From: Escherichia phage vB_EcoM_Goslar
Strand: one strand, 5' to 3'
Sequence record: NC_048170.1
DNA length: 64,000 nucleotides
Numbering within the stretch: the first letter of the stretch is position 1; every line of letters starts with the position of its first letter. Positions 1,092 through 63,686 of this stretch are shown here, piece by piece. Made by a program: the position numbers and the translations under genes. Under the pieces are notes generated by a model that worked only from the letters and a program-made list of their open reading frames with translations, searched no databases and was not told the origin of the DNA.

Positions 1092-1155
1092 AATTTGTTT
1101 CCTTTACAATAAATTGCACATTAGCTAATGTGGCTTAAGTGAACCGTCAGCTCAC

Positions 1156-2585: not shown

Positions 2586-2624
2586 GAGTGAGCACCTATG
2601 CTATTTCGAAACAGGTTACGTGTA

Positions 2625-3731
2625 TTAACGAATCTGTGGGACGTTTCCGGTACGGAGCGCCTGGAGGATCGTCAGAAGATCGGAACCCGAAGTTGACGAA
2701 CTGTTGGATTTTTCCAGTTGCTTGAAGCTTACGGTGGTCCCTTGATCCAAGCTGTGGAAATAGAAGGTCACCATCTCTTCAGCTTCGTCGATGATGATCA
2801 ACTGCATTGCGAGGGCTTCAGCCATGACTTTCTGACGTGTGGTATAGTCAGATAAACGACGTCCGATCTTACGCTCGATGGCTTCCTGGTTAGCCTTAGA
2901 GATGATATAGGTGGAGGCGATTGCTCCAGAAGAAGGGATCTTTGTGCTCGCTGCAGCTTTTGCGGCATTGATGCGCGCAGCATTAACAGCCTTGCGGATA
3001 CCCTCTTTATCCATGCGTGAGATTCGTTTATGTTCACGAACCAGATCGCTAAGCAGGATCATATCGCTCCAGAAAGACAGCTCACCAGCCATCATGCGAT
3101 GCCAACGTGCTCGCCAGGTGTTCTGTGGGCCACCGATCGCTAAAATCGATGCAAGCACTTCCGCTGGAGAGCTTGCAATACGCATGCTGATGTTCAACGG
3201 CATTTTCATCGTTGCCTGACCATCGGTCAGCGTCACGGTTAAGAACTTGCCGGTGACCGCGTTCGCATCTTTGTTCAGCAATTCGATCGCCGCGTCGCTA
3301 GCTCCAACATCGAGGCTATTTTTTTGTTTCCCCTGCAGGTTGAATCCTTTGTCATCAAGGAAAACAAGGCTTTTGCTATCCGCACTTTCCAGCGCTAATT
3401 TGATAGCCTTATCCGTCAGATTAGCATTACGATTTGGGTTCACACGACCCAGCGTTTTATCTACACTGATGTTACCCACCTGCATGATGGTATTCAACGC
3501 CAGTAAATAGAACCCGGTATACATGTTTTCAGCGGTGCGCATGCAGTTGCCTAACGCATTGCGTGCGTCGCTATAATACAACTCACGTTCAAAGATCAAC
3601 GGCGCGATAACGCGTGAAGGTTGTGAGAGTTCAACCAGCGAACCTGGCTGGATAAGTTTATTAACTTCGTAGACTTTAGCGATACCGGACGCAACAACGT
3701 TAACAGCGTCGGCAATTTCTGATGCTACCAT
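2625..3731 (-). CDS. Hypothetical protein (368 aa)
   Basis: ORF track; coding-like codon usage. Confidence 0.8.
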   Translation of the reverse strand: MVASEIADAVNVVASGIAKVYEVNKLIQPGSLVELSQPSRVIAPLIFERELYYSDARNALGNCMRTAENMYTGFYLLALNTIMQVGNISVDKTLGRVNPNRNANLTDKAIKLALESADSKSLVFLDDKGFNLQGKQKNSLDVGASDAAIELLNKDANAVTGKFLTVTLTDGQATMKMPLNISMRIASSPAEVLASILAIGGPQNTWRARWHRMMAGELSFWSDMILLSDLVREHKRISRMDKEGIRKAVNAARINAAKAAASTKIPSSGAIASTYIISKANQEAIERKIGRRLSDYTTRQKVMAEALAMQLIIIDEAEEMVTFYFHSLDQGTTVSFKQLEKSNSSSTSGSDLLTILQALRTGNVPQIR

Positions 3732-3765
3732 ATTGAAATCCTTATTTACAAATAAAGGAAAGAAA

Positions 3766-4971
3766 ATGTCTAATTACTACGACCAAGCTATTCAAACCAT
3801 TCAGGAGAATAATGCGTCGTTAACACCCGAAGCTGTGGAGGCAGCGGGCAATGCGGTGTTATTCACTGATTCGGATTGGGCAATAGCGCGGAAGAATATT
3901 CGTACCAGTGTCGGTCAAGGGACATACGAGGACAGTATCGCCAGACGGTATCGGAACGTGTCACCTATTCCAGGTAACAGCCCGATCCCGATTAACCGCG
4001 ATCATTCCGGTATTACCTTCTTTACACGACCTAATTTACATCTTACCGACGCGAACTTAAAACGAGATCGACGTTTGTGGTCGTTACGCACGGATAACCC
4101 TAACAGTATTCAGGCTGTTGTCCGCGACTACTTGGACCCTGTGGGTGCCAGAAAGCGGAACCATCGAGGACGTGCCATCGTCGATGAGCGCAATCCATTC
4201 ATAAGTATACTGACGGACAACCTGACGGATATCAGCGGTTTCAATGACATGGAAATGCAGGTCTATCAGGGTAAACCGGGATTACGCCAAGAAACCGTTG
4301 TGATGGCTGACGGTTCAGTGGATATGTTTCAACCCTATAACCTGAACGCGACGTTCAAGAACATCATGGGTAACCCCATCATGTTCCTTCATTATATTTG
4401 GTTGATTTACATCGCTGGTGTGCATAATGGCGAACTGACGCCAAGCCCTCAGGCCATCATTGATAATGAAATGGATTACTGGACAAGATGTTATCGTATC
4501 ATCTTGGATCCGACTGGGATGTATGTTCGTTATATCTTCGCGCCGACCGCGATGTTTCCGGTTGGGCTACCGATTGGTAATATGGCCAACTACAGCATCG
4601 ATAAACCCTTCACGCAAGATAACGAACGTATCACTATTCCATACCAAGCGGTTGGTAACAACGCATTTGATGAGATTCTGAAGGATGAATTCAATCGACT
4701 TGTCCTGATGTTCTATTACGGTGAGAACGATACCCGTACGTTCCTTGAAGATGAGGAGTTGGTACCTATCTCACCCTACGAGCGTCGAATCATGTCGTAT
4801 CGTGTCGATATGTATCCATTTATTCATCCGTTGACCTCAGAGCTTCTTTGGTTCGTACCCGCTGATGATTACAACGAATTCTATCTGGACCTTGAGCCGT
4901 CGGCGTTACCACCGGATACGTTCAGTCGCGATCTTGTCCGTACCACCATTCCGCAAAATTACGAGGGATAA
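3766..4971 (+). CDS. Hypothetical protein (~401 aa); track start 3733 is a TTG, the ATG near 3766 has an AAGGAAAG RBS
   Basis: ORF track 3733..4971; internal Met (MSNYYDQ...) preceded by Shine-Dalgarno. Confidence 0.8.
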   Translation: MSNYYDQAIQTIQENNASLTPEAVEAAGNAVLFTDSDWAIARKNIRTSVGQGTYEDSIARRYRNVSPIPGNSPIPINRDHSGITFFTRPNLHLTDANLKRDRRLWSLRTDNPNSIQAVVRDYLDPVGARKRNHRGRAIVDERNPFISILTDNLTDISGFNDMEMQVYQGKPGLRQETVVMADGSVDMFQPYNLNATFKNIMGNPIMFLHYIWLIYIAGVHNGELTPSPQAIIDNEMDYWTRCYRIILDPTGMYVRYIFAPTAMFPVGLPIGNMANYSIDKPFTQDNERITIPYQAVGNNAFDEILKDEFNRLVLMFYYGENDTRTFLEDEELVPISPYERRIMSYRVDMYPFIHPLTSELLWFVPADDYNEFYLDLEPSALPPDTFSRDLVRTTIPQNYEG

Positions 4972-4974
4972 TAA

Positions 4975-7968
4975 ATGAGCGTAACCAACAAAGATCTTGC
5001 TGAACAGCTCAATCGCTATATGCTTTCACCTATTGAAATGCAGGCTGTTGCAAGCGATATGATCCGTTTGGCTTCTGATGGTGAATTAACCCTGGTTGAC
5101 CCCAGCTGTCCGTTTGTTTATCTGCTGGAGGTTGCAACGGCGACGGCGGCGAACCAGAACGCACGGGATGAATCCCGTGTTCGCGAACTGTATCCGAAGC
5201 TCGCAACGAACTGGAACCAGCTCTATCGTTGGATGTATGATGAGTCGTACGTTGGACGTTTCGCAATGCCGGGTAAAACGGAAATCATCTATTCGTTAGG
5301 GTATCAGGAAATCCTCGATCGCGCTGTAGAGATTCCCAACACCATCGCCTCCGATGATTTAAGCCGTTCTTACAGCCGTAAGTTAGTGATACCACGTACG
5401 ACGGCGTTTACGGTGGCTGGAATGGATTTCGGGTTGCATTATCCCATCGAAATCCAAGTACAAGCGCACGACCAGATCCGCGTCGTTTATAACACCGATA
5501 ACATCAGCCCATTGCAAACCTTGGAGAGTAACCAGGTTGAGTACGGGGTTGTTCGTGTAAAAGCGGGTAAAGTGTTGGTGATGCGTATTCCGCTGTTCCA
5601 GTTTAAAACACTGGTAAAAGATGTGCCGTTTAACAGCGTTCACGGGATGAACAGCAGCATTACCTTCGAAGATCAGTTTTACCATTGTCGTGCGTACATG
5701 TCGTCGGATAACGATACCTGGACGGAGATAGCGACAACACACAGTCAGCAGATCTACGATCCGTTAACACCAACCATCGCGTTACAAGTAGAAGGGAACA
5801 AACTTAACTGGCGTGTTCCTGAAATTTATTTGTCTCAAGGTACGATGGATAAAAGCACCATTCGACTTGAGGTGTTGACGACGAAAGGGAAAATCAGCGT
5901 CGACCCGTCTGATTACGACGTGACCGATTGGAAAGATAACTACATCGATTTGTCACCAAAAGCTGAACAGAAATACAGCGCGCCGCTAAGCGCATTCAAC
6001 ATTAAAGGGATTTATAGCGAAGGGGCATTGTCGGGTGGACGATCTGCATTAACGTTCGAGGAACAACGTGAACGTGTTATGGCGGGTGTGAACAAAACCA
6101 AGGTACCGATCACGGGAACGCAGGTAGAGCTGGTGCTTCAAGATGCGGGTTATGGGATGGTGACCACCATCGACAACGTAACCAATCGTTCGTTCCTGGC
6201 AACCCGAGATTTACCGCAATTGAGCGACAGCGTGCCGCAAGCCGGTTCGTTGATGGGGTCTTTCTATACGTCAGCTGCAGCATTGGTGAAAAGTAAGTTT
6301 GTCGCCGATAACGGCGATCGTATTACAATTAAACCTGACTGCCTGTATCGCGACAGTAACGGAAGTATCACGCTGTTGTCGGACGATGAAATTGACCGTA
6401 TTAATGCAGGCAACTCCGATGCGAAGTTGAACGCGGTAAACAACGCCATGTTGTTCTACAGTCCGTTTCATTACGTATTAGATGCAACAAGCGATTTCGA
6501 CATCCATGCTTATTACCTGGATGCCCCTAAGATCGGCACACAAGCATTCCTCGACGCGAACGAGACGATCCCGTTAACCGCTATGGTGACCGGATACCGT
6601 CTGGATCGTATCGCTGAAGGATATCGTCTAAGCCTCATTGTAGAAGGTAACGACGCATGGAAGGCGCTCGACGATAAAAACGTGCACATCCAGCTGGGAT
6701 TCAATCCGCGGGGTGAGGGTGATTATGCGACGATGCTGGCGTCACCGACAACCGATGAACAAGGTCGTCGTTTGTTCACCTTCGATATCACCACGAATTA
6801 CGATTTTACACGAATCCTGGCCGATGATTCCACGGCGTATGAACCGTATATCGCATTGACTTCGTTCTCGATGTATGAATCAACACCGCGGGATTATTGG
6901 GCATCACTGCAGCAGTATTTGGAAATCTTCCATGTGGTGACGGATTACGCGCCTGAAGATGTCGACGGTATCTTACACAGCGCTTCCGATAATTACCTGG
7001 TTAAGAAACTCACGCTTCAAAATGGGTATTGTTTCTACCGTGAACGTCTCACCGCAACCTTTGGTTATGATCTGGATGGTCTTTGGATGCGTTCTCGTAC
7101 GGTGGCCTCGGAGATCACGTATAAACGTTACACCGAGAACATTCCGTGGGTGTATGATGAAGATATCCCAGCGACGGATGAGACCGGTTCTGTTATCATT
7201 GAGCCGGGTGACGATGGTACGTTGTCGGTTAAATATCTGCATCGTAAAGGAGATCCGAAATTAAACAGTGATGGGAGCCAAGCCTATCGTTATCTGAAAG
7301 GCGACATCATGAAAGATAATTACGGTAATCCGATCCCCGTCGATGAACGTGAGGTTCTGCGTAACCTGGATATGTTCTTTATTGATGCATCGTATCTGTT
7401 AGCGAACGATACAGACGTGATTGAGTATCGTAATGCGATTCCTACGCAGCTTATCGAATGGATCCAGAACGATATCGACACGTTCAGGAATTTCTGTTAT
7501 GAAGAAACAGAGATTTCATTGTATCCTAAGCAATCGCTGGGGTATGTGGATGTTATTGTGGAAAACGGATTGGAAACGACGCTTCCTGCTGCCCTATCGT
7601 TCAACGTGACGCTGTACTTACCAGCTAAGCAATACGCTGACCTGGATTTACGTCAGGTCCTTCAAGCGATGGTATCGAAAGTCATCAATGAATGCTTAAC
7701 ATCCCGTACAGTGGCGAAAGCAGAAATGATCGCGATGATTCGTGAGGAGGGCGGTGACGACATCCTTAACGTTGAAATCGATGATTTTGGACCAGGTAAG
7801 AACCTCAGTGTTTATACCGCGAAGAACGATGGTGTTCGTTGTGCGGTGAAGAAAGAGCTTTATGTTAAAGCGGATGGTATCTTGTCCGTACGTGAAGCGA
7901 TCGATGTAAGTTTTGTGAAACATGCACAAAGCAACAGCACAGCGTTAGCGCAAGGCCTCCGTGTCTAA
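4975..7968 (+). CDS. Large hypothetical protein (997 aa), possibly virion structural
   Basis: ORF track; GAGGG RBS 9 nt upstream; starts 4 nt after previous stop. Confidence 0.85.
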   Translation: MSVTNKDLAEQLNRYMLSPIEMQAVASDMIRLASDGELTLVDPSCPFVYLLEVATATAANQNARDESRVRELYPKLATNWNQLYRWMYDESYVGRFAMPGKTEIIYSLGYQEILDRAVEIPNTIASDDLSRSYSRKLVIPRTTAFTVAGMDFGLHYPIEIQVQAHDQIRVVYNTDNISPLQTLESNQVEYGVVRVKAGKVLVMRIPLFQFKTLVKDVPFNSVHGMNSSITFEDQFYHCRAYMSSDNDTWTEIATTHSQQIYDPLTPTIALQVEGNKLNWRVPEIYLSQGTMDKSTIRLEVLTTKGKISVDPSDYDVTDWKDNYIDLSPKAEQKYSAPLSAFNIKGIYSEGALSGGRSALTFEEQRERVMAGVNKTKVPITGTQVELVLQDAGYGMVTTIDNVTNRSFLATRDLPQLSDSVPQAGSLMGSFYTSAAALVKSKFVADNGDRITIKPDCLYRDSNGSITLLSDDEIDRINAGNSDAKLNAVNNAMLFYSPFHYVLDATSDFDIHAYYLDAPKIGTQAFLDANETIPLTAMVTGYRLDRIAEGYRLSLIVEGNDAWKALDDKNVHIQLGFNPRGEGDYATMLASPTTDEQGRRLFTFDITTNYDFTRILADDSTAYEPYIALTSFSMYESTPRDYWASLQQYLEIFHVVTDYAPEDVDGILHSASDNYLVKKLTLQNGYCFYRERLTATFGYDLDGLWMRSRTVASEITYKRYTENIPWVYDEDIPATDETGSVIIEPGDDGTLSVKYLHRKGDPKLNSDGSQAYRYLKGDIMKDNYGNPIPVDEREVLRNLDMFFIDASYLLANDTDVIEYRNAIPTQLIEWIQNDIDTFRNFCYEETEISLYPKQSLGYVDVIVENGLETTLPAALSFNVTLYLPAKQYADLDLRQVLQAMVSKVINECLTSRTVAKAEMIAMIREEGGDDILNVEIDDFGPGKNLSVYTAKNDGVRCAVKKELYVKADGILSVREAIDVSFVKHAQSNSTALAQGLRV

Positions 7969-7983
7969 AACAAAATAGCGTGA

Positions 7984-8030
7984 GCATAACCCTCCTCCAA
8001 CCCGTAAGGGAAGGAGGAGGGAATATGCTG
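7984..8030. terminator. Bidirectional stem-loop between convergent genes (CCCTCCTCC / GGAGGAGGG arms, extended by CATAAC...ATGCTG flanks)
   Basis: Near-perfect inverted repeat read directly; lies between the + gene ending 7968 and the - gene ending 8031. Confidence 0.6.
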
Positions 8031-10823
8031 TTATCTTACGTTATTGCTATTCTGCTGTTCGCTGAACCAGCCATACACCTTGAGATCGGTACCGTATTTC
8101 AATGCGATATACGCATTCAGCGCAGCGCAGAACAAAGACGCGAATGCCCATATCAGCGAAGGATCGACGTCTTCCGTTACCACTGGGAGAGTATTATCCG
8201 GTTCCCATGATGGTGAACTGTCCATGAACGTCGCGTACCATCCCCGCCGTTGTTCTTCGGTGGTAAAGTCGCTATGGGGTTCCAATGCTTCTTTTGCCAG
8301 ACGTCGATATTCGAACATATGCGTTGCTAAAGCCGATGAGTTACCAGATTCGCCCTCATAGTTCGGATCCACCGCATAACAGAGTTCTGTTGAATCTAAC
8401 AAAGCAACCGCCTGTGTGATGCTGTCGGCAGTGCCTGCACCATAGAGCTCGATAGACCGCGAAAGCTTTTCACAGAACGCATTTAACGCGGAAGGATTGG
8501 ACACCTGAAGGTCAAGGCCTAATGTCCACGGATAGTTACTGAATACACCCGTAAACCGTGGCATAACACCCAACAGATGCTGTCCGATTACGGCACGGTT
8601 ATAAACAGCCCTGTTATAGACTTGAAGCGCGGCCTCCAGGGCTTGGTTATAATGACGACGAAGCTCGTCACGAGAGTTGCGGAACCTGTTTGCCGCAAGA
8701 CTTGTGGCTGCGACGCTACAAACATCGTAATTGGTGGACGAGAGCACAACCTCGTTAAGATCGAACGCTTCCTGTTTCAATGTTCCGCTAACAGCCGCTG
8801 CTTCGCTGTTCGCTTTATCGACAACTGTACTCAAAGCGTTAATATAACGTTTAGCTCGGACCTCCAACCATTGTGCGATACCGAGAATATCCACCGCAGC
8901 TTTAGCAAGATCACGTGCATTCACGATTTCGTTCTTCAATGCCCCTAAACCTTTATTTTCAGGCGATGAGGCTTGTTGACGAATCATGCTGTTCAACATG
9001 GTAAGCAGATTATCCAACTCATGTCCGCTGACCTTGTTACGTGCATCGGTAATCGGCCCTTGCAGGAATTTACGGCAACCGTCGTTGTATCGAATCAGTT
9101 TATCCACATCGATAGATTCGTTCGTGGATTCCTTGAACTGATCCTTCAATTCTTCACGGTAATCATGGATTTCACTTGCGAGATTATCGATAGTGATACC
9201 ATCATGTCCAAGAAGAACTTTATTGAAGTTACCTTTCTCGAATGCAAGAGTAAGACCTTCACGAATCTTAGCGAGTTTGTCCTGATCAAGTTCACGACCG
9301 TTCGATAGCTCTTTCACTTCCGAGCTGATTAATGCCGAAACGTTACCCAGATTGTCGGTAACCCCTTTGAACGCTCCCGACCAGATCGTTCCTGCTTCAG
9401 CATATTTCGCAATGGTCTGAATACCGACGGTATGTAACGATGCTAAGCGTTTCTTCGTGCCTTCGGTAAGCAGTGCGTCTTTAGCTCGCGTAAGCTGACT
9501 GTTATTAGCTTCCGCCTGCTGAATCGCTGCTTTCGCACTTCCATTACGCCAGCTCTTAACCAGCCAATCAACCAAACGTTTTAGGATATTGACGGTGTAT
9601 TCCATTGTCCGCCGTAACGTTTCCCACGCGCTTTCTGCGGTATAGATGCCGTACCCTTCCATCTTCGTTGGGTCAAAGAAACCTTCCTGCACGAGATCGG
9701 TACGTGTGTAGCCATCAGCAGCTTCTACTTCCGCCTGGGTTTTATCCCAGAAGTCGTCGCTCTTTGCAGCAATCGCTGTATCTTTAACGTCCAGGATGAT
9801 CTGACCAACCGTTTGTGCAAACAGCAAGGCTGCACGTACCGATTGTGCGAACATCCGCTGATATTTGATTCGAACGCATTGCATCTGGGTTAGCAGATTC
9901 AGTTGTGCGATCCCATCCAAGGTGCTATCCTGAGCAAGTCCTTCGGCTTTAGCGATAACCTGTTTTACACGTTCAGCGACATCACCGTACTGCTGGCAAA
10001 CATCCCGCAGAATACGTGCCGCGAAGACCCCGGTACCGATATAGTTCAATAGGTCTTTTAACGACCATTCGGTCGGACAATCGGTCGGCGCAATAGGGAG
10101 TAAGCAACCATCACCGTCCATGAATCTCTCTAATGCGCTAATATCCTGATTTTCTACGCTCATGGGGATATCGACATCAGCCGCTTGCAGATCCAGCATC
10201 TGTTGTAGGATGTTGGTATCGGCTTGTACAAGCGTCGCAAGCGCTTGGCTGTGTGCGATTATTGGTAACGCAGGTGACCATACTGCAGCAAGCTTGTCGG
10301 CGTGACGTTGAATGGCATACCCCATATCCTCGATCACATCGGGATGCTCGATAACCCCCTGAAGCGTTTGATGTAGCTCACCGAGTTGCTGAGACAGATC
10401 GACCATCATGGTGTTGAAGGTTTCGTCATCCTCTTTGTGGTTGTCCAGACGCTCGAGTTCATGTCGAAGCAATGTAACGAGCTGTCCGTTGCCTTCTTGC
10501 TTCAGCTTGCTTTCCATTAACGTAATGGCTTTATCGACGATCTGACACGCTTCACGAAAACCGGTTGTGGAAGGAAGCTCTGTCCATAACGCCAGCGGTT
10601 TACCGTCAAGGGCTTCCGGCATCGATAACGAAAGCATAGACAGTTGTTGACGTGATACTTGCTGTTCACGGTGTAATGTTTCTTTTAACGCCAGGAGATC
10701 GTCAAGAAACGCGCCGTTAAGGGTGGTCGTACGTGGTGTTGAATTAATACCGTCAGTTAACGATTCAAGCACCAGGAGACCGTTATCAGCTGAAGAGAGT
10801 CCCGCGGCAAGATATTTGTTCAT
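8031..10823 (-). CDS. Large hypothetical protein (930 aa)
   Basis: ORF track; start MNKYLAAG sits 12 nt downstream of a hairpin. Confidence 0.85.
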   Translation of the reverse strand: MNKYLAAGLSSADNGLLVLESLTDGINSTPRTTTLNGAFLDDLLALKETLHREQQVSRQQLSMLSLSMPEALDGKPLALWTELPSTTGFREACQIVDKAITLMESKLKQEGNGQLVTLLRHELERLDNHKEDDETFNTMMVDLSQQLGELHQTLQGVIEHPDVIEDMGYAIQRHADKLAAVWSPALPIIAHSQALATLVQADTNILQQMLDLQAADVDIPMSVENQDISALERFMDGDGCLLPIAPTDCPTEWSLKDLLNYIGTGVFAARILRDVCQQYGDVAERVKQVIAKAEGLAQDSTLDGIAQLNLLTQMQCVRIKYQRMFAQSVRAALLFAQTVGQIILDVKDTAIAAKSDDFWDKTQAEVEAADGYTRTDLVQEGFFDPTKMEGYGIYTAESAWETLRRTMEYTVNILKRLVDWLVKSWRNGSAKAAIQQAEANNSQLTRAKDALLTEGTKKRLASLHTVGIQTIAKYAEAGTIWSGAFKGVTDNLGNVSALISSEVKELSNGRELDQDKLAKIREGLTLAFEKGNFNKVLLGHDGITIDNLASEIHDYREELKDQFKESTNESIDVDKLIRYNDGCRKFLQGPITDARNKVSGHELDNLLTMLNSMIRQQASSPENKGLGALKNEIVNARDLAKAAVDILGIAQWLEVRAKRYINALSTVVDKANSEAAAVSGTLKQEAFDLNEVVLSSTNYDVCSVAATSLAANRFRNSRDELRRHYNQALEAALQVYNRAVYNRAVIGQHLLGVMPRFTGVFSNYPWTLGLDLQVSNPSALNAFCEKLSRSIELYGAGTADSITQAVALLDSTELCYAVDPNYEGESGNSSALATHMFEYRRLAKEALEPHSDFTTEEQRRGWYATFMDSSPSWEPDNTLPVVTEDVDPSLIWAFASLFCAALNAYIALKYGTDLKVYGWFSEQQNSNNVR

Positions 10824-10838
10824 AAAACACTCCGTTGG

Positions 10839-10869
10839 CCTAGGGGAAGGTTTTCAGCCTTCCCCTAGG
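10839..10869 (-). terminator. Stem-loop (CCTAGGGGAAGG / CCTTCCCCTAGG) between tandem minus-strand genes; terminator or attenuator
   Basis: 12-bp perfect inverted repeat; followed on the minus strand by GTTTTAT and then the next start codon. Confidence 0.5.
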
Positions 10870-10882
10870 GTTATAAACACAA

Positions 10883-13687
10883 TTAAGCTAATTTACCGAA
10901 ACCGGCTTTCTGCAGTTTCTCGTTGATGATTTTCGCTTCAGCGAAGACGTAATCGCGGTAGGCGGTCACTAACGCATCCACACGTGAACGCAAGGCTTCT
11001 TCGAAGCTATACCACGCAGCGATTTCACGAATCTGTGCGTTGATATAATCAACGGTTGAGCGAAGCTCGGTTGCGTTTTCCTGCGGGATGGCTTTCACCT
11101 GGCGAGCAACGTCATTTAAACGACGGAACTGTGTTTCGATTTCTTTAAACTTATTGTCGGCAAGTTTGCTGAATTCGTCACCAGAACGGGTAAATAACAG
11201 ATAGCTGTTGCCATCAAGTGCGGTCGCTAACTGCTGAAGTACGTTGGTGTCCGGATACACAGGAGTACCGCTTTGCAGTACCTTCTCACCGAATTCCGCG
11301 AAGTCCTTCGGTGGTAAGTGCGCAGACGTTGTCAACTCGTTGAAACGGAAAGTCAGCGAACTATCATACAACATCCGGTACGCTTCCATACCCTGCTTCA
11401 TGGTGCCAGCCAGGTTGGCCAGACGCGGAGCAATCTCACCCTCTTTAGCGCGTTTCTGGTCTTCTAACGCCCCTTCGAGTTCTTTACACTGGTCGTTCAG
11501 ATACACGATACGATCGGGACGCAGACGACGCATCTCACGAAGAATGGTATCCAGCTTACCTTCCTGGAAATAACCTAGCGTTAAAGACGTACACGCTTGC
11601 TGAAGACGATCGAACACCGGTAAGGTTACCATCTCCTTACGGATACCATCAACAATCGCAGAAACAGCCGAAAGTTTCTGTTCTGTCGTTAATGGAACAT
11701 CAGAGACCGACTTGCTGGGCGCACCAACAACGTTACGCATTGCGTCGGTATCCTCGGTTTTATCAACCTCTTTACGAACATGCTCATCAGGAACATAAAC
11801 GTTCGCATTACGTTTCGCCTGCTTGATGGCATCGTTGGCCGCTTTTTCGGTGGCTGCTACGCTATCGGCACGTTTCTTCAAGAGTTCAATAATCCAGAGC
11901 ACCAGACGACGAATCGCAGTATAGGCCGTCGTGATGATGACACCGATAACAGCCATCTTCATGATACCGAACGATTCCATGGTCGGCTCTAATGCCTGGT
12001 CTGGCATATAGCGTTCACGCAGCTCCAGATAGATCTGCTCATCCGGTTTGCTGATCTCGCCACGATGCGAAGTCCGATAGATGGCTTCGTCAATCTCAAC
12101 AAGATCTTTGCGTGCCTGACGGTCTGTTTCGGTCAAATAAGCGCAGCCGGATACGTCGTCTTCAAAACTTTCGAACTTAAAGAAATCGACAACCATCTTG
12201 GCAAGCGCCTCTTTCTTAGCAGGATCGAGTGTCTTCGCATCTTCTTTTTGCTTATCCATTTTTTCCTTGAATTTCTCTTTGTAGTCATTCAAGGGTTTTA
12301 CCGCTCTTGCTTTCAACGCGTTATAGATAGCTTTCCACTCATCGTTACGTTCGAGGACAATGAAATGGTTTTTGAGTTCGAAAGCGCGATAGCGTGCAAC
12401 GAGCTGTTCTACCTGAATATGAGCGAGTTGGATATCCATTAACCAACGCGACATCGCCGAGATCAAACGGCTATAAGCGAACAACGTTTGGTAGGTTAAC
12501 TTCATGTATGTTTCATACAGCTCAATATCGCCGCTCTGAATATTGGCTGTTGGATTCATTTCCTTTGTTGCCTTGAAGACCTGTTCTGCTTCTCTCAGCG
12601 TCTTTTCGAACTTAACGTCATTAAACGCAGTGAATGGTTCAGCCAACTCATGCATTTTATCGTGGAGTTCGCGGATCCAAGCTTCCTTGCTGTCGCGGAT
12701 GGTGTTTTCATCATGGAGCACGGTTTGATGTTTTCGTACCCATTCTTCCACGATATCAGCAGCGGAAACAATCGGAACGCGATCTGAAATGAGCGGGACG
12801 ATCGTGTGAAGCGCCCCGACACATTCTGGCGTGTCCCAGTGTTTCTGGAGTTCATCACGGAAACGGTTAATGTTTTCTAAGGTGGTACCTAAATCAAGGA
12901 AAGTGCCGCCATTATGACTCATCTGTGCAACCAGATCGGCAAATACCTTTTGTTTTTCGATGACAAAAGGAACCATCCGCATAAGCCATTCAGCAGTTGC
13001 TTTAGCCTTTTCTTTCAGGTTCTTATCGGCGATTTCTTTAAGGTTAATCGCGCTACCGTATCCTGCAAGTTCGTTGTAGACGTCGTTAACCGTCATCTCT
13101 TTATCCAACATTTCTTTGAAACGTGGATAATCTGCACCTAACGCGTCGATGACTTCTTGGATGATGTCGTCTGTGGTAGCGATAAATTTATTTGTGCCGC
13201 CGTAATGGTTCCAGATTTTCTGTAGCGTCTTCTTAAAGAATTCGAAGACGAATGTCCAGATACGCTTAATGAGTTCCCAGACTTTCTTCGCACCATCGAC
13301 AAACAGTTTAGAGACTTTGGCAACGAATCCTTCCTGCACCAACTCAACGCCGTTACGTGATGGAATTTCGGTGAAGAAAGCATCTGGCAGTTGTTTCGGG
13401 AACGCGTCACCAAGACGCATACGCAATTCGGGTACATCGGCACGAGAAATACCGCGCGTCGTTAACTGCTCGTGAAGACGAACGTTTTCTTCACCAGAGG
13501 CTACGAATTCGTTAACGTCAAATGACACCAGTTCTTGATCTTCGGTGGTGACGACGCTTGAACCATCACTGGTTTGGATGTCTTCGTCAGGGAATGCCAT
13601 GAGCATACCGTGACGCATTTCAACCACTCCGTAATCGGTTGCTAAACCGAATTCGTTGTGATCGGGGGTAATAACTGGGATACTCAT
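10883..13687 (-). CDS. Large hypothetical protein (934 aa), helical/charged, one hydrophobic segment
   Basis: ORF track. Confidence 0.85.
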   Translation of the reverse strand: MSIPVITPDHNEFGLATDYGVVEMRHGMLMAFPDEDIQTSDGSSVVTTEDQELVSFDVNEFVASGEENVRLHEQLTTRGISRADVPELRMRLGDAFPKQLPDAFFTEIPSRNGVELVQEGFVAKVSKLFVDGAKKVWELIKRIWTFVFEFFKKTLQKIWNHYGGTNKFIATTDDIIQEVIDALGADYPRFKEMLDKEMTVNDVYNELAGYGSAINLKEIADKNLKEKAKATAEWLMRMVPFVIEKQKVFADLVAQMSHNGGTFLDLGTTLENINRFRDELQKHWDTPECVGALHTIVPLISDRVPIVSAADIVEEWVRKHQTVLHDENTIRDSKEAWIRELHDKMHELAEPFTAFNDVKFEKTLREAEQVFKATKEMNPTANIQSGDIELYETYMKLTYQTLFAYSRLISAMSRWLMDIQLAHIQVEQLVARYRAFELKNHFIVLERNDEWKAIYNALKARAVKPLNDYKEKFKEKMDKQKEDAKTLDPAKKEALAKMVVDFFKFESFEDDVSGCAYLTETDRQARKDLVEIDEAIYRTSHRGEISKPDEQIYLELRERYMPDQALEPTMESFGIMKMAVIGVIITTAYTAIRRLVLWIIELLKKRADSVAATEKAANDAIKQAKRNANVYVPDEHVRKEVDKTEDTDAMRNVVGAPSKSVSDVPLTTEQKLSAVSAIVDGIRKEMVTLPVFDRLQQACTSLTLGYFQEGKLDTILREMRRLRPDRIVYLNDQCKELEGALEDQKRAKEGEIAPRLANLAGTMKQGMEAYRMLYDSSLTFRFNELTTSAHLPPKDFAEFGEKVLQSGTPVYPDTNVLQQLATALDGNSYLLFTRSGDEFSKLADNKFKEIETQFRRLNDVARQVKAIPQENATELRSTVDYINAQIREIAAWYSFEEALRSRVDALVTAYRDYVFAEAKIINEKLQKAGFGKLA

Positions 13688-14124
13688 GCATTCTCTCCTT
13701 GCAGTGCGTTAGCGAAAGCTGTTGCGAGCTGCGCAACCAGTTTCGGATCAACGCCTTCGATAACGTCAGGCAGCCCTGCGGTTTCTTGGTCACGAACAGC
13801 GGAGGCTAATAACAGCATGGTTTCAGGCGCGGTTGGCTCATGCACCATGCGGTAACGCAGGCACCAGAAGTAGCGGGCAACGTCTAACGCATCAGCCAGC
13901 CCAATAACCAGCACCTTGTTCAGTTTATCCAACCCGTCACGGATTTTAGGGAGATGTTCACGAACGAAGATGCTATCCGCAGTCAGATCTTCTTTTTCAG
14001 CGAATACCGGCATGCTGTAACCGGCGATGTAACCTGCGGCAATACTTAACGCGCGGGTCTGTTGTTCGGCTGGGAAGTCACGTACCAGGTCTTTCAGCTG
14101 AACGGCGAAATCAGAAATATTCAT
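13684..14124 (-). CDS. Hypothetical protein (146 aa)
   Basis: ORF track; 4-nt overlap with downstream gene. Confidence 0.75.
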   Translation of the reverse strand: MNISDFAVQLKDLVRDFPAEQQTRALSIAAGYIAGYSMPVFAEKEDLTADSIFVREHLPKIRDGLDKLNKVLVIGLADALDVARYFWCLRYRMVHEPTAPETMLLLASAVRDQETAGLPDVIEGVDPKLVAQLATAFANALQGENA

Positions 14125-14157
14125 GTTAAATTCCTTTATAGTAAAAAATAGAAGAGA

Positions 14158-17189: not shown

Positions 17190-17257
17190 CCTTCGTTCTG
17201 TAAAAGTTTACTTCATGTAAGAATCGTGTGCGGCATAAGAGAGGCCGATACATCTAG

Positions 17258-18469: not shown

Positions 18470-18504
18470 CAGGTCCCCCTACTTGTAATGAGTGGGTGAA
18501 CTCT

Positions 18505-19245: not shown

Positions 19246-19284
19246 CGAAGCCCCTCCCCCTGGCGGAAGCCGGAGGGAGGGGTG
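19246..19284 (-). terminator. Rho-independent terminator of the gene ending at 19289
   Basis: CCCCTCCC...GGGAGGGG stem with inner CTGGC/GCCGG pairing, followed on the minus strand by a T-rich tract (GTTTTCTTTTTGTT). Confidence 0.65.
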
Positions 19285-19288
19285 AGGT

Positions 19289-19774
19289 TTATGCGCGTTC
19301 GTTGCCAACCGTTACTTTGTAGTCAGCGTCGGTTAAGAAAATAGACAGGAATCCATGTTCTTTGCAAATCTTACTAAGGATGTCAGCAATGATTTCGTTG
19401 ATCATCGGCTTGTTTGCAAGGGCATAGATGTACCCGGGTGTAAAAGAAAGTGCGTGATTGATCATAGGCTCATGAGAAGCCAAGATAAGGATCACGTGAT
19501 GCTTCCCATCGTCGGTAACGACCGCTTGCGTAGACACGAAGAAATCAGTGAAGCAGCAGCGATCACAGGCTTTAGGTATATACAAGTCACCCAGAGCTTC
19601 GTCACGTGCTTTTACGTGTGTTTCAGGGGTAATGCTGCTAAGTTGATCTTCAGCGAGATCCAAGACATCCTCAATCGTTTTAAGAATAGCGTTGCGGAAA
19701 TCCTCACGGTAGAATGGGATGATATCACGATCGTTCATGTAATCGCCGGATTCGATAGTAAAGTTGATGTTCAT
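19289..19774 (-). CDS. Hypothetical small protein (161 aa)
   Basis: ORF track; terminator immediately downstream; preferred over the overlapping + strand ORF 19355..19777. Confidence 0.75.
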   Translation of the reverse strand: MNINFTIESGDYMNDRDIIPFYREDFRNAILKTIEDVLDLAEDQLSSITPETHVKARDEALGDLYIPKACDRCCFTDFFVSTQAVVTDDGKHHVILILASHEPMINHALSFTPGYIYALANKPMINEIIADILSKICKEHGFLSIFLTDADYKVTVGNERA

Positions 19775-20334: not shown

Positions 20335-20363
20335 TGTTTCTTTTCCTGTTATAGTCAACATAT

Positions 20364-20398
20364 AGCCCTTCCCCGGCCTTGACGGCTAGGGAAGGGGC
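20364..20398 (-). terminator. Stem-loop (AGCCCTTCCCC / GGGAAGGGGCT) between tandem genes
   Basis: Inverted repeat read directly. Confidence 0.5.
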
Positions 20399-20423
20399 TA
20401 GGTACGTTATTTATGCTTCATTA

Positions 20424-22735: not shown

Positions 22736-22797
22736 AAAAACAGCATAGAACCCTCCTCCCCCATCCTTCAAGAGGACGGTGGGAAGAGGGAGAGAGA

Positions 22798-23199: not shown

Positions 23200-23254
23200 G
23201 GAGTGCTTTTCCTATTTTTATTTTCTGCACAGGATAAATTCAACGGCATAAAGC

Positions 23255-23285
23255 CCTTCCCTGCCCTTATATGGGGCGGGAAGAG
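23255..23285 (-). terminator. Imperfect stem-loop (CTTCCCTGCCC / GGGCGGGAAG)
   Basis: Inverted repeat in a 210-bp intergenic region. Confidence 0.45.
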
Positions 23286-23412
23286 TTTATGACCGCAATG
23301 AGAATCTCTCACGACAAGCTCACGACGATTATCGCATCACCCCGCGAGTGAGGGAGATCAGGATCACCTCCTACGTCGTAACGACAGCAATCCCGTTACG
23401 TCGCATTAGACG

Positions 23413-28917: not shown

Positions 28918-28918
28918 A

Positions 28919-29428: not shown

Positions 29429-29439
29429 TGCAACGGTAA

Positions 29440-29485
29440 CATAACCCTCTCCCAACCCAGCAGGGAAGGGAGAGGGCTTATGCTG
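29440..29485. terminator. Bidirectional stem-loop between convergent genes (CCCTCTCCC / GGGAGAGGG), same family as 7984..8030
   Basis: Inverted repeat; same AACCC...AGGGAA loop and ATGCTGTTAT flank as the 7984 element. Confidence 0.6.
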
Positions 29486-29493
29486 TTATGCTA

Positions 29494-33745: not shown

Positions 33746-33883
33746 GGTCTTGTCCTATATGTTGGTGGTTGAGGTGGCGGATATCGGATGCGTGCTGGAC
33801 GTGAACCCTATAGTTCGCGCTATCGCCATTTTCTACCTCGTTTCTATTCTCAAAAAGGAAATTTCATACGATGACGCCATAGC

Positions 33884-33913
33884 AGCTCCTCCTTCCCTGA
33901 CGGGTTGGAGGAG
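33884..33913 (-). terminator. Stem-loop (GCTCCTCC / GGAGGAGC) downstream of the lipoprotein gene
   Basis: Inverted repeat followed on the minus strand by a T-rich tract. Confidence 0.5.
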
Positions 33914-33922
33914 CATACTTAA

Positions 33923-34426
33923 TTACTTACTGATAACCTCAACGGAATTGGGATCAGCGATCAACGCACGATCGGTAGAACAATTGAAGAAGACCATGCC
34001 AACACCATCGCCGTTCGAGTTCAGGGTTGAACTTGCGTAAGACAATGTTGGTTTATTCATGCGGTAGAAGCGTTCGCTGGTTGCGGTATTGAACCCCAGA
34101 TCAACGTAGTCTTTCACCGTGGTATACAACTGGGTGGACTCGAAAACGGTTACCGGAGAGTCGACGGTAAACTGACTACCTTCATCCACAACCAGAACTT
34201 TATCGTTCCAGATTTCAGTGGTTGAAAACTTCGGTTTCCAATGTTCGAATTCCTGGGTTGCGCCCCAGCAGGAATACACAGCGAGATTGCTGTTCTTCTC
34301 AACAGGTTTCAACCCCACCAGTTGTGTCAGGTCTTTATCCAGGTTCGGTAAGCCTTCCAGCGTAGCGCACCCACCCAGAGAAAGCACCATCAACATACCA
34401 AGAATAATCGCGCAAAGTTTCTTCAT
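33923..34426 (-). CDS. Putative lipoprotein (167 aa)
   Basis: N-terminal signal peptide with lipobox (MKKLCAIILGMLMVLSLGGC). Confidence 0.7.
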   Translation of the reverse strand: MKKLCAIILGMLMVLSLGGCATLEGLPNLDKDLTQLVGLKPVEKNSNLAVYSCWGATQEFEHWKPKFSTTEIWNDKVLVVDEGSQFTVDSPVTVFESTQLYTTVKDYVDLGFNTATSERFYRMNKPTLSYASSTLNSNGDGVGMVFFNCSTDRALIADPNSVEVISK

Positions 34427-39413: not shown

Positions 39414-39600
39414 TAATCAAATTAAAATGTAAAACGCCTCGAAACCGGAGTGCGATTCGAGGTAAACGTAAACAGTCCAGACGACCGCATAAAATTCCGC
39501 GCATATTGCCCCTCTACCCCGACAAAGCGAGATAGAGGGGAGGATAATACGATTATGCTACTACACTCCAAAGTTCATGGGGCGGTAATCGCCCCATCGG

Positions 39601-46414: not shown

Positions 46415-46461
46415 GATGATTTCCTTCTTTATTAGGATGATTACATTTAGTCAGTTTAACA

Positions 46462-46495
46462 GCATAAACCCTTCCTGCGTAAGGCAGGAAGGGCG
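46462..46495 (-). terminator. Stem-loop (ACCCTTCCTGC / GCAGGAAGGGC), CATAAACCC family
   Basis: Perfect 11-bp inverted repeat downstream of the gene ending at 46508. Confidence 0.6.
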
Positions 46496-53645: not shown

Positions 53646-53693
53646 TTTGTTTCCTTTTATCGGCATAAGCCCTCCCATGCCGGGAGGGTACAA

Positions 53694-54122
53694 TTATTCA
53701 TTTTCAATAACTTTAAGATTCGGTGTACCGAGCGTTTTCTTCACCAACGCTTCGGCAACACGTTTCTCGATGAAATCGGTTGCATTGCTTCCGTCTATCG
53801 TACGCATATCGCCACGGAAATTGCTGAAGACCATAAACAAGTCACAACCATCGATAGGTATCGCAAGATCATAACTGACTTGTGATGCTGTGAAATGGAC
53901 ACCCACGACAACGGCGGGAACGAATTTAACCGCTATGTTATCTCCTTCTTCTCCGGTTCCGAACGGAAGCTCAACACGATCACCGATAGAGAACTGTGAG
54001 ACATCATTAATCGCGTGAGTTAGTGCGATTCGTTGCATGTCGGCGATCTTTTCCTTATTCGCGTCGCAAGGTAGGTCCAAGACTTCTTCCAACGTGAAGA
54101 ATTTACGATCGAACCAGCTCAT
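53694..54122 (-). CDS. Hypothetical protein (142 aa)
   Basis: ORF track. Confidence 0.75.
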   Translation of the reverse strand: MSWFDRKFFTLEEVLDLPCDANKEKIADMQRIALTHAINDVSQFSIGDRVELPFGTGEEGDNIAVKFVPAVVVGVHFTASQVSYDLAIPIDGCDLFMVFSNFRGDMRTIDGSNATDFIEKRVAEALVKKTLGTPNLKVIENE

Positions 54123-60473: not shown

Positions 60474-60553
60474 AAAATTGTCAAAATGTACATCAGCATA
60501 ACGCCCGTGCCCGCCCGCGATGGGAGGGACACAGGCAATACGCTTTTATTTCG

Positions 60554-63122: not shown

Positions 63123-63311
63123 CGCAGCATACCCACCATGCCGATTACGGCAAACAGTATACCGACCGCACTATACGCAAGCAGCGCTTTAGCAACCCAA
63201 GATTTTATTTCCGTATACTCTTCATTATTCACCATGTCTCACCTCGTTCGGTTATTGTCTGATCTCATACCTTTACTTAAGCATATCCCCGTCATTAAGA
63301 CGGGGTGTTTA

Positions 63312-63686
63312 TCACCAGAGACGATTACCTTCCTCGTCCCACCAAGCAATCGCTCGTGTCGACTCGAATGTGTTAGGGCGTAACGTCATGCCCTTGCGGT
63401 CAACGATTAACCGCAACTCAGTACCGAACCACTCAATCGAGATAAACAAACCCTTCCGAATGATTGCTTGATAACCTGATAGCCGCTCAAAGAGTCGTTG
63501 AAAGATCTCATCATGCCCACACGACACTAATGCTTCTGAATAGCGTCGCATCGATTTTGCATCGCTAGGTAAACGTGTTTTACAATCCCACCATAACACA
63601 GCGTACATCAGTGCGGCATTACGCAATCGTAACGATTGAACTGGTGTTAGCTGCCGTCCTTCAACATCATCGATAATAACATACAT
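63312..63686 (-). CDS. Hypothetical protein (124 aa)
   Basis: ORF track. Confidence 0.7.
   Translation of the reverse strand: MYVIIDDVEGRQLTPVQSLRLRNAALMYAVLWWDCKTRLPSDAKSMRRYSEALVSCGHDEIFQRLFERLSGYQAIIRKGLFISIEWFGTELRLIVDRKGMTLRPNTFESTRAIAWWDEEGNRLW

What the first reader, a model, noticed from the sequence alone, without database searches (positions are those of the whole stretch)
7984..8030. Family of GC-rich stem-loops with conserved flanks reused as terminators
At least four hairpins share the architecture CATAACCC-[T/C-rich arm]-loop-[G/A-rich arm]-ATGCTGTT: 7984..8030, 29440..29485, 22741..22795 and 46462..46495. Similar CCCTYCC/GGRAGGG stems occur at 19246, 20364, 23255, 33884 and 53665. 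The two copies between convergent genes have nearly identical loops (AACCCGTAAGGGAA and AACCCAGCAGGGAA). The conserved flanks and loops suggest a repeated element that spread through the genome, or one with a function beyond termination such as a protein-binding or RNA-processing site.
Basis: seen in the sequence. Interest (0 to 1): 0.5.

Follow-up and report, generated by a model that had tools for sequence, protein, structure and literature searches.

The report
phiKZ-type transcription terminators in jumbo phage
The repeated GC-rich hairpins with conserved flanks are real, but they are this giant phage's copies of a terminator signal (hairpin followed by TTATGYYGT) already mapped in phiKZ and 201phi2-1, so the finding is sound but mostly ordinary.

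Summary
The window is a stretch of an uncultivated phiKZ-like jumbo phage that encodes its own RNA polymerase subunit. It carries at least 12 intergenic hairpins with a pyrimidine-rich 5' arm (CCCTYCC), a purine-rich 3' arm (GGRAGGG), a 5' flank CATAA, and a 3' tail (T)TATG-Y-Y-G-T starting 1-3 nt after the stem.

- **Enrichment:** hairpin followed by TATG occurs 13 times, against 0.3 expected.
- **Orientation:** in all 9 one-sided copies the tail lies on the coding strand, just after a stop codon. Two of the three copies between convergent genes carry it on both strands; the third (19251) has variant tails.
- **Match to a known motif:** this is the conserved intrinsic terminator motif reported for phiKZ (BCCYCCCCHWWDGGGRRGGBYTTATKYYGT; 61 mapped terminators) and 201phi2-1. 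A covariance model built only from phiKZ copies recovers six of the window's sites at E < 0.03.
- **Distribution:** the same architecture occurs in Xanthomonas phage RTH11. It was not found in the 50-kb samples of SPN3US, EL, AR9 or T4.
- **Selection on structure:** orthologous copies in relatives at 88-96% DNA identity show compensatory stem changes with unchanged flanks.

A spreading mobile repeat is not supported. The tail contains the phiKZ late-promoter tetranucleotide TATG, but the phiKZ start-site table holds no start at any of the terminator strings I searched. Verdict: new member of a known kind, low novelty.

The parts
7984..8032 (.). Bidirectional terminator between the convergent genes 4975-7968(+) (gp87-like virion protein) and 8031-10823(-). 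Stem 7990-7998/8013-8021, apical CCC/GGG helix with tetraloop GTAA. Tail on + is AATATGCTGTT; tail on - is TTATGC.
   Evidence: Folds at -31.9 (+) and -33.1 (-) kcal/mol, z about -7 to -8. Matches the phiKZ-derived model R1 on both strands. Positional orthologues exist in phiKZ, 201phi2-1 and RTH11. In relatives L004 and L005 the stem is kept, the tetraloop varies and the tail changes C to T.
29438..29487 (.). Bidirectional terminator between 28850-29428(+) (macro-domain protein) and 29494-29868(-). Stem 29445-29453/29468-29476, apical CCC/GGG helix. Tail on + is CTTATGCTGTT; tail on - is TTATGTT.
   Evidence: Best R1 hit in the window, 33.1 bits, E 9e-7. The orthologue in L017 shows two compensatory pair swaps with unchanged flanks.
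22739..22790 (-). Terminator after ORF 22798-23199(-). Long imperfect hairpin 22751-22790, then TTC-TATG-CTGTT.
   Evidence: -31.4 kcal/mol. A candidate early promoter follows about 35 nt downstream.
46458..46494 (-). Terminator after the cell-wall hydrolase gene 46508-47005(-). 10-11 bp stem, pentaloop, tail TTTATGCTGTT.
   Evidence: R1 21.5 bits.
23242..23295 (-). Terminator in the 213-nt spacer after ORF 23413-24051(-). Hairpin, then CTT-TATG-CCGTT.
   Evidence: R1 18.5-25.6 bits; orthologue in L017.
20354..20406 (-). Terminator after ORF 20424-20909(-). Hairpin 20366-20396, then CTA-TATG-TTG.
   Evidence: R1 19 bits. The ATG of the tail is the mechanical start of ORF 19885-20361, but an in-frame ATG 27 nt downstream, preceded by AGGAAA, is the likelier start (read).
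33873..33923 (-). Terminator after ORF 33923-34426(-). Third copy of the long form (GCTCCTCC-AA-CCC-GTCA-GGG-AA-GGAGGAGC), then TGC-TATG-GCG.
   Evidence: R1 12 bits, marginal.
39497..39540 (-). Terminator after the tail-protein gene 39601-43197(-). 13-bp stem CCCCTCTATCTCG/.., then CAA-TATG-CGCGG.
53659..53698 (-). Terminator after ORF 53694-54122(-). CCCTCCC-ggcat-GGGAGGG, then CT-TATG-CCGAT. This is the copy most like phiKZ.
   Evidence: R1 21.8 bits.
60492..60537 (-). Terminator after ORF 60554-61186(-). 14-pair imperfect hairpin, then T-TATG-CTGAT.
   Evidence: -33.5 kcal/mol.
63277..63314 (-). Probable terminator after ORF 63312-63686(-). CCCCGTC-ttaat-GACGGGG, then A-TATG-CTTAAG.
   Evidence: R1 8.9 bits, weak.
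19248..19293 (.). Divergent member between DNA-polymerase exon 2 (about 18946-19203, +) and ORF 19289-19774(-). Hairpin 19251-19282. Tail on + is TGAGG-TTTATGCG; tail on - is CTTCGCATGCG-TTTTC.
   Evidence: R1 matches the stem only, 11.9 bits.

Best explanation
These are the phage's own intrinsic (factor-independent) transcription terminators, of the type conserved in phiKZ-like jumbo phages.

**Proposed mechanism.** The RNA forms a very stable hairpin with a pyrimidine-rich 5' arm and a purine-rich 3' arm. The 5' flank CAUAA can pair with the 3' tail UUAUG and lengthen the helix at its base. The short U-rich stretch YUUAUGYYGU takes the place of a canonical U-tract. The transcript is released within or just after UUAUG, about 6-10 nt past the stem.

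Because stem and flanks are palindromic, one element stops transcription from both sides where genes converge. In tandem gene arrays only the coding-strand tail is kept.

**Shown here:** the anatomy, the enrichment, the orientation rule, the match to phiKZ, the compensatory evolution, and the positional conservation.

**Taken from published experiments in relatives:** 3' ends map at the motif in phiKZ, and motif-bearing terminators of 201phi2-1 terminate in an in vivo trap in uninfected Pseudomonas.

**Inferred:** that the window's copies terminate in the same way, and that the U|G step of UAUG helps by supplying the Y(-1)G(+1) core of the general pause consensus of multisubunit RNA polymerases.
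For: 1. **Phage type.** The window is a phiKZ-like jumbo phage. ORF 4975-7968 matches virion proteins of 288 phiKZ-type records at about 33% identity. ORF 24077-25378 is a phiKZ-type RNA polymerase beta subunit (phrog_2962, E 2.7e-106).
2. **Published motif.** Putzeys et al. 2024 (PMC10914365) report 5'-BCCYCCCCHWWDGGGRRGGBYTTATKYYGT-3' in 61 phiKZ terminators mapped by ONT-cappable-seq. The 201phi2-1 study (PMC11512511) finds a closely resembling motif in 59 terminators and validates motif-bearing ones in vivo.
3. **Direct comparison.** A phiKZ copy reads aacATAAtGCCCTCCC..GGGAGGGCTTATGCTGTtaag. The window reads CATAACCCTCTCCC..GGGAGAGGGCTTATGCTGTTA.
4. **Independent model.** Covariance model R1, built only from 9 phiKZ copies, finds window sites 29436-29487, 53659-53698, 46458-46503, 7980-8032, 20354-20406 and 23242-23294 at E < 0.02.
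5. **Enrichment.** 13 against 0.3 expected.
6. **Orientation.** The tail is on the coding strand in 9 of 9 one-sided copies and on both strands at two of the three convergent sites; the third, 19251-19282, has variant tails.
7. **Mapped 3' ends.** At phiKZ motif terminators the mapped 3' end lies 0-5 nt after the first T of TATG, so the RNA ends ..UUAU or ..UUAUGY(Y).
8. **Shared tail.** The profile TATG-Y-Y-G-T is shared by the window, phiKZ, RTH11 and 201phi2-1, whose sampled terminator copies span roughly 0.35-0.69 G+C.
9. **Covariation.** 97.5% of cells are paired and 7 of 8 pairs show changes on both sides. True orthologues show two compensatory swaps.
10. **Position.** The element lies at the same gene boundary, downstream of the gp87-like gene, in four phages.
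Against: - There is no transcript 3'-end data for this phage. Function is transferred from relatives with only about 33% protein identity.
- The tail is not a canonical U-tract. The generic terminator scan of 1-20000 did not list the 7990 element.
- ONT-cappable-seq 3' ends cannot by themselves separate termination from trimming back to a stable hairpin.
- Some copies (63287, 33885, 19251) score weakly with the phiKZ model.
- The covariation alignment was fitted to the model's structure, which inflates the percentage paired.
- G at -10 of the pause consensus is present in only 6 of 13 copies (hand count from the sequences), so the pause argument rests on Y(-1)G(+1) alone.
Confidence: 0.85

Rival explanations
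1. Composite terminator-promoter module. The TATG after the hairpin would be a phiKZ-type late promoter (TATG, with G as the start site, read by the non-virion RNA polymerase). Each element would then end one transcript and immediately start the next.
For: - TATG is exactly the late-promoter consensus of phiKZ and is necessary for transcription by the non-virion polymerase (PMC4666361; PMC12809450).
- What else defines a late promoter is unknown.
- In tandem arrays the next gene starts 20-115 nt downstream of the tail.
Against: - In the phiKZ start-site table, none of the terminator strings I searched ends at a mapped start. They occur only 25-40 nt upstream of starts that have their own early or late motif (P016, P017, P041).
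- The model late promoter P119L has no upstream hairpin.
- At two of the three convergent sites the tail is present on both strands, where a promoter would fire antisense into the opposing gene.
- The conserved Y-Y-G-T after TATG is not a late-promoter feature.
- Mapped RNA 3' ends fall on the TATG itself.
Confidence: 0.07
2. A mobile or recombination-spread repeat (REP- or MITE-like palindromic element) that multiplied in this genome and only incidentally forms hairpins.
For: - There are many copies with similar flanks.
- Three copies share the unusual long form AA-CCC-NNNN-GGG-AA.
- Two intergenic leaders elsewhere in the window are clearly duplicated, so intergenic duplication does happen in this genome.
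Against: - Similarity between copies stops at the motif. Stems differ by compensatory C-G to U-A changes.
- I saw no flanking duplications or extended terminal repeats in the sequences read.
- Orientation follows transcription in 9 of 9 one-sided copies.
- The same motif occurs in phiKZ, 201phi2-1 and RTH11 at unrelated and at orthologous positions, which points to selection on a signal rather than copying.
Confidence: 0.03
3. Chiefly an RNA-level element for something other than release of the polymerase. Candidates are a 3' stability cap against exonucleases, an RNase processing site, or a binding site for a phage protein that reads the conserved CAUAA/UUAUGYYGU flanks.
For: - Sequence conservation of G and Y-Y-G-T in the tail, and the strict pyrimidine 5' arm and purine 3' arm, go beyond what hairpin stability needs.
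- 3'-end mapping cannot tell termination from trimming.
- The authors of the 201phi2-1 study themselves raise antitermination control.
Against: - Motif-bearing terminators of 201phi2-1 reduce downstream reporter expression in uninfected host cells. This is termination without any phage protein.
- Bidirectional placement between convergent genes is what a terminator needs.
- Stabilisation is a by-product of any terminal hairpin and does not exclude termination.
Confidence: 0.05

Closest known systems
Conserved intrinsic terminator motif of Pseudomonas phage phiKZ (Putzeys et al. 2024, Microlife; PMC10914365)
   Same: - Arms CCYCCCC/GGGRRGG.
- Tail TTATKYYGT starting 1-2 nt after the stem.
- 5' flank (A)CATAA.
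- Placement after stop codons, with bidirectional copies between convergent genes.
- A model built from phiKZ copies recovers the window's copies.
   Different: - Stems here are often longer (9-17 pairs against 7-8).
- Loops are longer. Three copies carry an extra apical CCC/GGG helix, so the published fixed-length 30-nt pattern finds none of them, even at up to 4 substitutions (one match at 6).
- The tail favours TATGCTGTT.
- The genome is 46% G+C and only about 33% identical in protein to phiKZ-type phages.
Terminator motifs A and A+B of Pseudomonas phage 201phi2-1 (PMC11512511)
   Same: Same hairpin-plus-TTATG signal: R1 hits in L008, and 10 of 36 hairpin records are followed by TATG. The idea that a second motif lengthens the hairpin resembles the long form seen here.
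   Different: The figures with motif B were not available to me, so I could not test whether the window's apical CCC-N4-GGG extension corresponds to it.
Canonical bacterial rho-independent terminators, including bidirectional ones with an upstream A-tract
   Same: GC-rich hairpin, release a few nucleotides after the stem, and a palindromic flank (CAUAA/UUAUG) that plays the part of the A-tract/U-tract pair.
   Different: There is no uninterrupted U-tract. A conserved G and Y-Y-G-T lie in the tail, and the arms have a strict pyrimidine/purine polarity. The window also holds two ordinary U-tract terminators (22155-22172 and 44132-44162, - strand) for comparison.
phiKZ late promoter (TATG, G = +1) read by the non-virion RNA polymerase
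   Same: The tetranucleotide TATG.
   Different: There is no mapped start at terminator-linked TATG in phiKZ. The terminator tail has conserved downstream bases that late promoters lack. It is present on both strands at two of the three convergent sites.

Membership tests
phiKZ-type conserved intrinsic terminator motif | GC-rich stem-loop with a CCYCCCC-like 5' arm and a GGGRRGG-like 3' arm | tested here: met
   All 12 listed parts form a GC-rich hairpin and nearly all carry these arms (63287-63305, CCCCGTC/GACGGGG, departs most). Folding energies are -14 to -33 kcal/mol.
phiKZ-type conserved intrinsic terminator motif | TTATKYYGT tail starting immediately (0-3 nt) after the stem | tested here: met
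   The spacer is 1-3 nt in 13 of 13 records, with TATG-Y-Y-G-T as in phiKZ. The 19251 copy departs from this on the - strand.
phiKZ-type conserved intrinsic terminator motif | Recognised by a sequence-plus-structure model trained only on phiKZ copies | tested here: met
   R1: six sites, eight strand hits, at E < 0.02. There were no hits in the EL, AR9 or T4 samples.
phiKZ-type conserved intrinsic terminator motif | Lies downstream of genes on the transcribed strand; bidirectional copies lie between convergent genes | tested here: met
   9 of 9 one-sided copies are co-oriented with their genes. All three convergent gene pairs that have a hairpin carry a palindromic element: both strands have the TATG tail at 7990 and 29445, while 19251 has variant tails.
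phiKZ-type conserved intrinsic terminator motif | Host genome is a phiKZ-like phage with its own multisubunit RNA polymerases | tested here: met
   virion protein homologues in 288 phiKZ-type records; RNA polymerase beta subunit, phrog_2962.
phiKZ-type conserved intrinsic terminator motif | Transcript 3' ends map at the motif | not testable with these tools
   There is no RNA data for this phage. In phiKZ the ends lie 0-5 nt after the first T of TATG.
Canonical rho-independent terminator | Hairpin followed by a run of U (at least 5 T in 8) | tested here: not met
   The tails are UUAUGCUGUU-like. Only 1 of 46 hairpin records in the window has at least 6 T in 8. The 7990 element is absent from the generic scan.
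phiKZ late promoter | TATG with transcription starting at the G | not testable with these tools
   TATG is present, but no 5'-end data exist here. In phiKZ none of the terminator strings I searched coincides with a mapped start.
REP/MITE-like mobile palindromic repeat | Copies related by descent over their whole length, with orientation independent of genes and insertion signatures | tested here: not met
   Similarity is limited to the motif, the stems covary, orientation is tied to transcription, and the orthologous copies compared are retained in relatives.

The most novel reading that the evidence does not exclude
The tail may be more than a weak U-tract: it could be a polymerase-specific stop signal. 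[quoted passage not shown] In phiKZ many mapped 3' ends lie exactly at ..UAU|G. An elongating phage polymerase could therefore re-capture TATG in the promoter register and pause there while the hairpin forms, so that promoter specificity and terminator sequence would co-evolve.

This would fit the lineage pattern in the 50-kb samples:
- The TATG tail is present in phiKZ, 201phi2-1, RTH11 and this phage.
- It was not found in AR9, whose late promoter is different (AACA-N6-TA/G).
- It was not found in SPN3US.
- In EL, 3 of 42 hairpin records carry it, which is background level (T4: 3 of 24).

The idea is untested. The fact that 201phi2-1 terminators also work in uninfected cells shows that it is not required for termination.
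Probability: 0.15. Interest if true: 0.6.

Novelty: new member of a known kind. Interest (0 to 1): 0.22.

Why it matters
The practical value is in annotation. The signal (hairpin, 1-3 nt, then TATG-Y-Y-G-T, with CATAA upstream) marks transcription-unit ends in an uncultivated jumbo phage. Here it helped to place gene starts (ORF 19885-20361), and one copy closes the split DNA polymerase gene.

Two modest additions to what is published:
- The motif extends to a distant 46% G+C lineage and to Xanthomonas phage RTH11. It was not found in the sampled regions of SPN3US, EL and AR9, so it looks lineage-specific within nucleus-forming phages.
- The 5' arm stays pyrimidine and the 3' arm stays purine even through compensatory changes, and the tail keeps a G and Y-Y-G-T. 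Hairpin stability alone does not explain these constraints.

If the tail is read by the phage polymerase, it would bear on the open question of how these non-canonical polymerases recognise a 4-nt signal.

Tried and rejected
- **Megablast to phage genomes.** Window 7000-9500 against INPHARED gave no match. Identity had to come from protein searches.
- **Published 30-nt IUPAC motif as a fixed-length pattern.** It gave 0 matches in the window at up to 4 substitutions and one at 6, because the loops here are longer. I replaced it with the 3' half-motif and a covariance model.
- **MAFFT alignments of phiKZ copies** (A1, A2). They did not keep the stems in register, so I used a geometry-homogeneous subset (A3).
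- **AR9-type late promoter (AACA-N6-TA/G) as a reading of AACAGCATAA.** Rejected: the spacing does not fit, the orientation is opposite to the downstream genes, and AR9 lacks the hairpin-TATG architecture.
- **Supplementary tables of the two journal papers.** They are not held. The bioRxiv version supplied Tables S3 and S4.
- **Ceyssens et al. 2014.** Not held.
- **Rfam at gathering threshold and tRNA scan of the whole window.** Nothing found.
- **Exact 16-mer GAGGGCTTATGCTGTT in IMG/VR.** It gave 11 stretches, 6 of them on contigs of 168-267 kb. This is suggestive of jumbo phages but is too few and too exact to quantify.
- **Shine-Dalgarno plus start codon reading.** The 3' arm GGAGG followed by ATG looks like one. 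I rejected it as functional because the ATG opens only 3-4 codon frames (for example ATG CTG TTA AAC TGA at 46463) and lies at the transcript's end.
- **The hairpin at 10839-10869.** It has reversed arm polarity and no TTATG tail, and I did not count it as a family member.

Full report
**1. What is in the sequence**

An exhaustive search for perfect stems finds:
- 7990-8021, CCCTCCTCC/GGAGGAGGG;
- 29445-29476, CCCTCTCCC/GGGAGAGGG;
- 46469-46493, CCCTTCCTGC/GCAGGAAGGG.

The five further stems listed are also present. The conserved flank is a palindrome: AACAGCATAA is the reverse complement of TTATGCTGTT. The copies at 22741 and 46462 are therefore the same element read from the other strand.

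I printed every intergenic spacer on the strand of its genes.

The 14-nt 'loops' of the two convergent copies, and of a third copy at 33885-33914, fold as an AA/AA internal loop, a CCC/GGG helix and a tetraloop.

**2. More than chance**

- Perfect GC-rich hairpins followed by TATG within 0-5 nt number 13 strand records. Thirty dinucleotide shuffles gave a mean of 0.3 and a maximum of 2.
- About three of the 13 are intragenic, lack the CCCTCC arms, and look like chance.
- In all nine one-sided family members the TATG tail is on the - strand, which is the coding strand of the flanking genes.
- At the convergent pairs 7969-8030 and 29429-29493 both strands carry the tail.

**3. What genome this is**

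- ORF 4975-7968 matches virion structural proteins of 288 phiKZ-type jumbo phages at about 33% identity. The best hits are Xanthomonas RTH11, Burkholderia FLC9 and Pseudomonas PA1C/PS119XW.
- ORF 24077-25378 is a phiKZ-type RNA polymerase beta subunit.
- There is no near-identical genome in GenBank phages.
- Two IMG/VR contigs of 183 and 238 kb are 88-96% identical in DNA.

**4. What the element is**

Putzeys et al. 2024 mapped 133 terminators in phiKZ by ONT-cappable-seq. [quoted passage not shown] The 201phi2-1 study finds a strongly resembling motif in 59 terminators. It shows that motif-bearing terminators work in a reporter trap in uninfected Pseudomonas, and better when a second motif lengthens the stem (PMC11512511).

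I fetched 150 kb of phiKZ. Its copies read, for example, aacATAAtGCCCTCCCgcaatGGGAGGGCTTATGCTGTtaag. The stem type, the tail and the 5' CATAA flank are those of the window.

As a membership test independent of the window, I built covariance model R1 from nine phiKZ copies only. Searched with filters off, it recovers window sites 29436-29487, 53659-53698, 46458-46503, 7980-8032, 20354-20406 and 23242-23294 at E < 0.02, and weaker ones at 33873, 19248 and 63277.

Over 0.5 Mb of sampled phage DNA, R1 also hits 201phi2-1 and Xanthomonas RTH11. It does not hit EL, AR9 or T4, and SPN3US gives only a stem-only match.

A model-free count of hairpin records followed by TATG agrees:

| Phage | Hairpin records followed by TATG |
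|---|---|
| window | 13 of 46 |
| phiKZ | 48 of 122 |
| RTH11 | 18 of 78 |
| 201phi2-1 | 10 of 36 |
| SPN3US | 0 of 56 (T-tracts instead) |
| EL | 3 of 42 |
| AR9 | 0 of 4 |
| T4 | 3 of 24 |

The base profile after TATG (Y, Y, G, T) is shared by the four positive phages. All 354 TATG sites in the window, taken together, show no such preference.

**5. Evidence for selection on structure and flanks**

- On the model-fitted alignment of 25 copies from the window, RTH11 and 201phi2-1, 97.5% of cells pair and 7 of 8 pairs show changes on both sides. Most changes are C-G to U-A, so the 5' arm stays pyrimidine. The alignment is fitted to the structure, which favours pairing.
- True orthologues give cleaner evidence. 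At 29445-29476 a relative at about 95% identity has CCCTCCTCC/GGAGGAGGG where the window has CCCTCTCCC/GGGAGAGGG. That is two compensatory swaps, with a different tetraloop and an unchanged CTTATGCTGTTATGC tail.
- At 7990 the relatives keep the stem, vary the tetraloop, and change the tail only C to T.
- The element downstream of the gp87-like virion gene is in the same place in the window, phiKZ, 201phi2-1 and RTH11. All four keep CATA(A) and TTATG flanks around different stems.

**6. How it most likely works**

I compared the phiKZ termination sites in the preprint's Table S4 with the genome. At motif terminators the mapped 3' end lies 0, 2, 4 or 5 nt after the first T of TATG. The RNA therefore ends ..UUAU or ..UUAUGY(Y), some 6-10 nt past the stem. 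That is the geometry of intrinsic termination, with YUUAUG in place of a U-tract. The CAUAA flank can pair with UUAUG and extend the helix into the hybrid.

The U|G step supplies the Y(-1)G(+1) core of the general pause consensus G(-10)Y(-1)G(+1) (PMC6062546). G(-10) is present in only 6 of 13 window copies, so this part is inference.

**7. Rivals**

*Terminator plus late promoter.* The tail contains the phiKZ late-promoter element TATG, with G as +1. Against this reading:
- None of the common terminator strings I searched ends at a mapped start in the phiKZ start-site table. They occur only 25-40 nt upstream of starts that have their own motifs.
- The model promoter P119L has no hairpin.
- The tail is present on both strands at two of the three convergent sites.

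*Mobile repeat.* This is contradicted by the short extent of similarity, the covariation, the orientation rule and the cross-phage conservation.

*RNA stabilisation or protein binding.* These cannot be excluded, but they are not needed to explain the data.

**8. Novelty**

The kind is known (2024 papers). The copies here are new members in a distant, uncultivated lineage. The residual oddities are an invariant G, the Y-Y-G-T, the arm polarity, and co-occurrence with lineages related to phiKZ. They leave room for a polymerase-specific reading of the tail, to which I give about 15%.

**9. Seen in passing**

- The 819-nt 'gap' at 18470-19288 is explained by a split DNA polymerase gene. Exon 1 is 15690-17189. 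An HNH endonuclease ORF lies at 17258-18469. A group I intron core lies at 18405-18923 (Rfam RF00028, 44.7 bits, E 5.5e-10, just under the gathering score). Exon 2 is about 18946-19203 and continues the polymerase profile exactly (positions 495-571 after 5-494).
- Two leaders (22620-22745 and 49714-49830, - strand) are homologous. They share TTTCACGRCTAYATTAC, which resembles the phiKZ early-promoter core.

Noticed in passing
window 15690-19203 (+): The DNA polymerase gene appears split by a group I intron that carries a homing endonuclease.
- Exon 1 is 15690-17189 (phrog_3011, positions 5-494 of 576).
- An HNH endonuclease ORF lies at 17258-18469.
- Rfam Intron_gpI matches 18405-18923 at 44.7 bits (E 5.5e-10, below the gathering score of 50).
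- A start-less open frame at about 18946-19203 matches phrog_3011 positions 495-571.

This explains the 819-nt ORF-poor gap. Exact splice sites were not determined.
   Followed up: partly
window 22620-22745 and 49714-49830 (- strand): Two intergenic leaders are 80% identical over about 105 nt. They share TTTCACGRCTAYATTAC (2 matches against 0.08 expected), which resembles the phiKZ early-promoter core ..CTATATTAC. A hairpin follows, then an identical CAATCCAATATAAAAGGATGTCRAGATG ribosome-binding region. This is a candidate virion-polymerase early promoter with a duplicated 5' leader. The two downstream ORFs (141 and 105 aa) have no family match.
   Followed up: partly
window 22155-22172 and 44132-44162 (- strand): Two ordinary terminators with real T-tracts sit alongside the TTATG type: GGTGGGG-ttcg-CCCCACC followed by T8, and a 12-bp stem followed by a long T-rich run. 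I did not examine whether the two types serve different polymerases or gene classes.
   Followed up: no
window 10839-10869: A perfect 12-bp hairpin CCTAGGGGAAGG/CCTTCCCCTAGG lies between two large tandem genes (930 and 934 aa, no family match). Its arm polarity is mixed and it has no TTATG tail. It is not recognised by the phiKZ terminator model, and its role is unknown.
   Followed up: no
window 20359-20361 / ORF 19885-20361 (-): The mechanical ORF start is the ATG inside the terminator tail TATG. An in-frame ATG 27 nt downstream, preceded by AGGAAA, is the likelier true start. More generally, the purine 3' arm (GGAGG) followed by ATG mimics a ribosome-binding site and could mislead gene callers in such phages.
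   Followed up: partly
L007 (SPN3US 1-50000), L009 (EL 1-50000): Within nucleus-forming jumbo phages the terminator style differs by lineage. In the sampled regions, SPN3US uses hairpins with T-tracts (0 of 56 hairpin records followed by TATG). EL uses long 10-16 bp stems without the tail (TATG follows 3 of 42 records, which is background level).
   Followed up: partly
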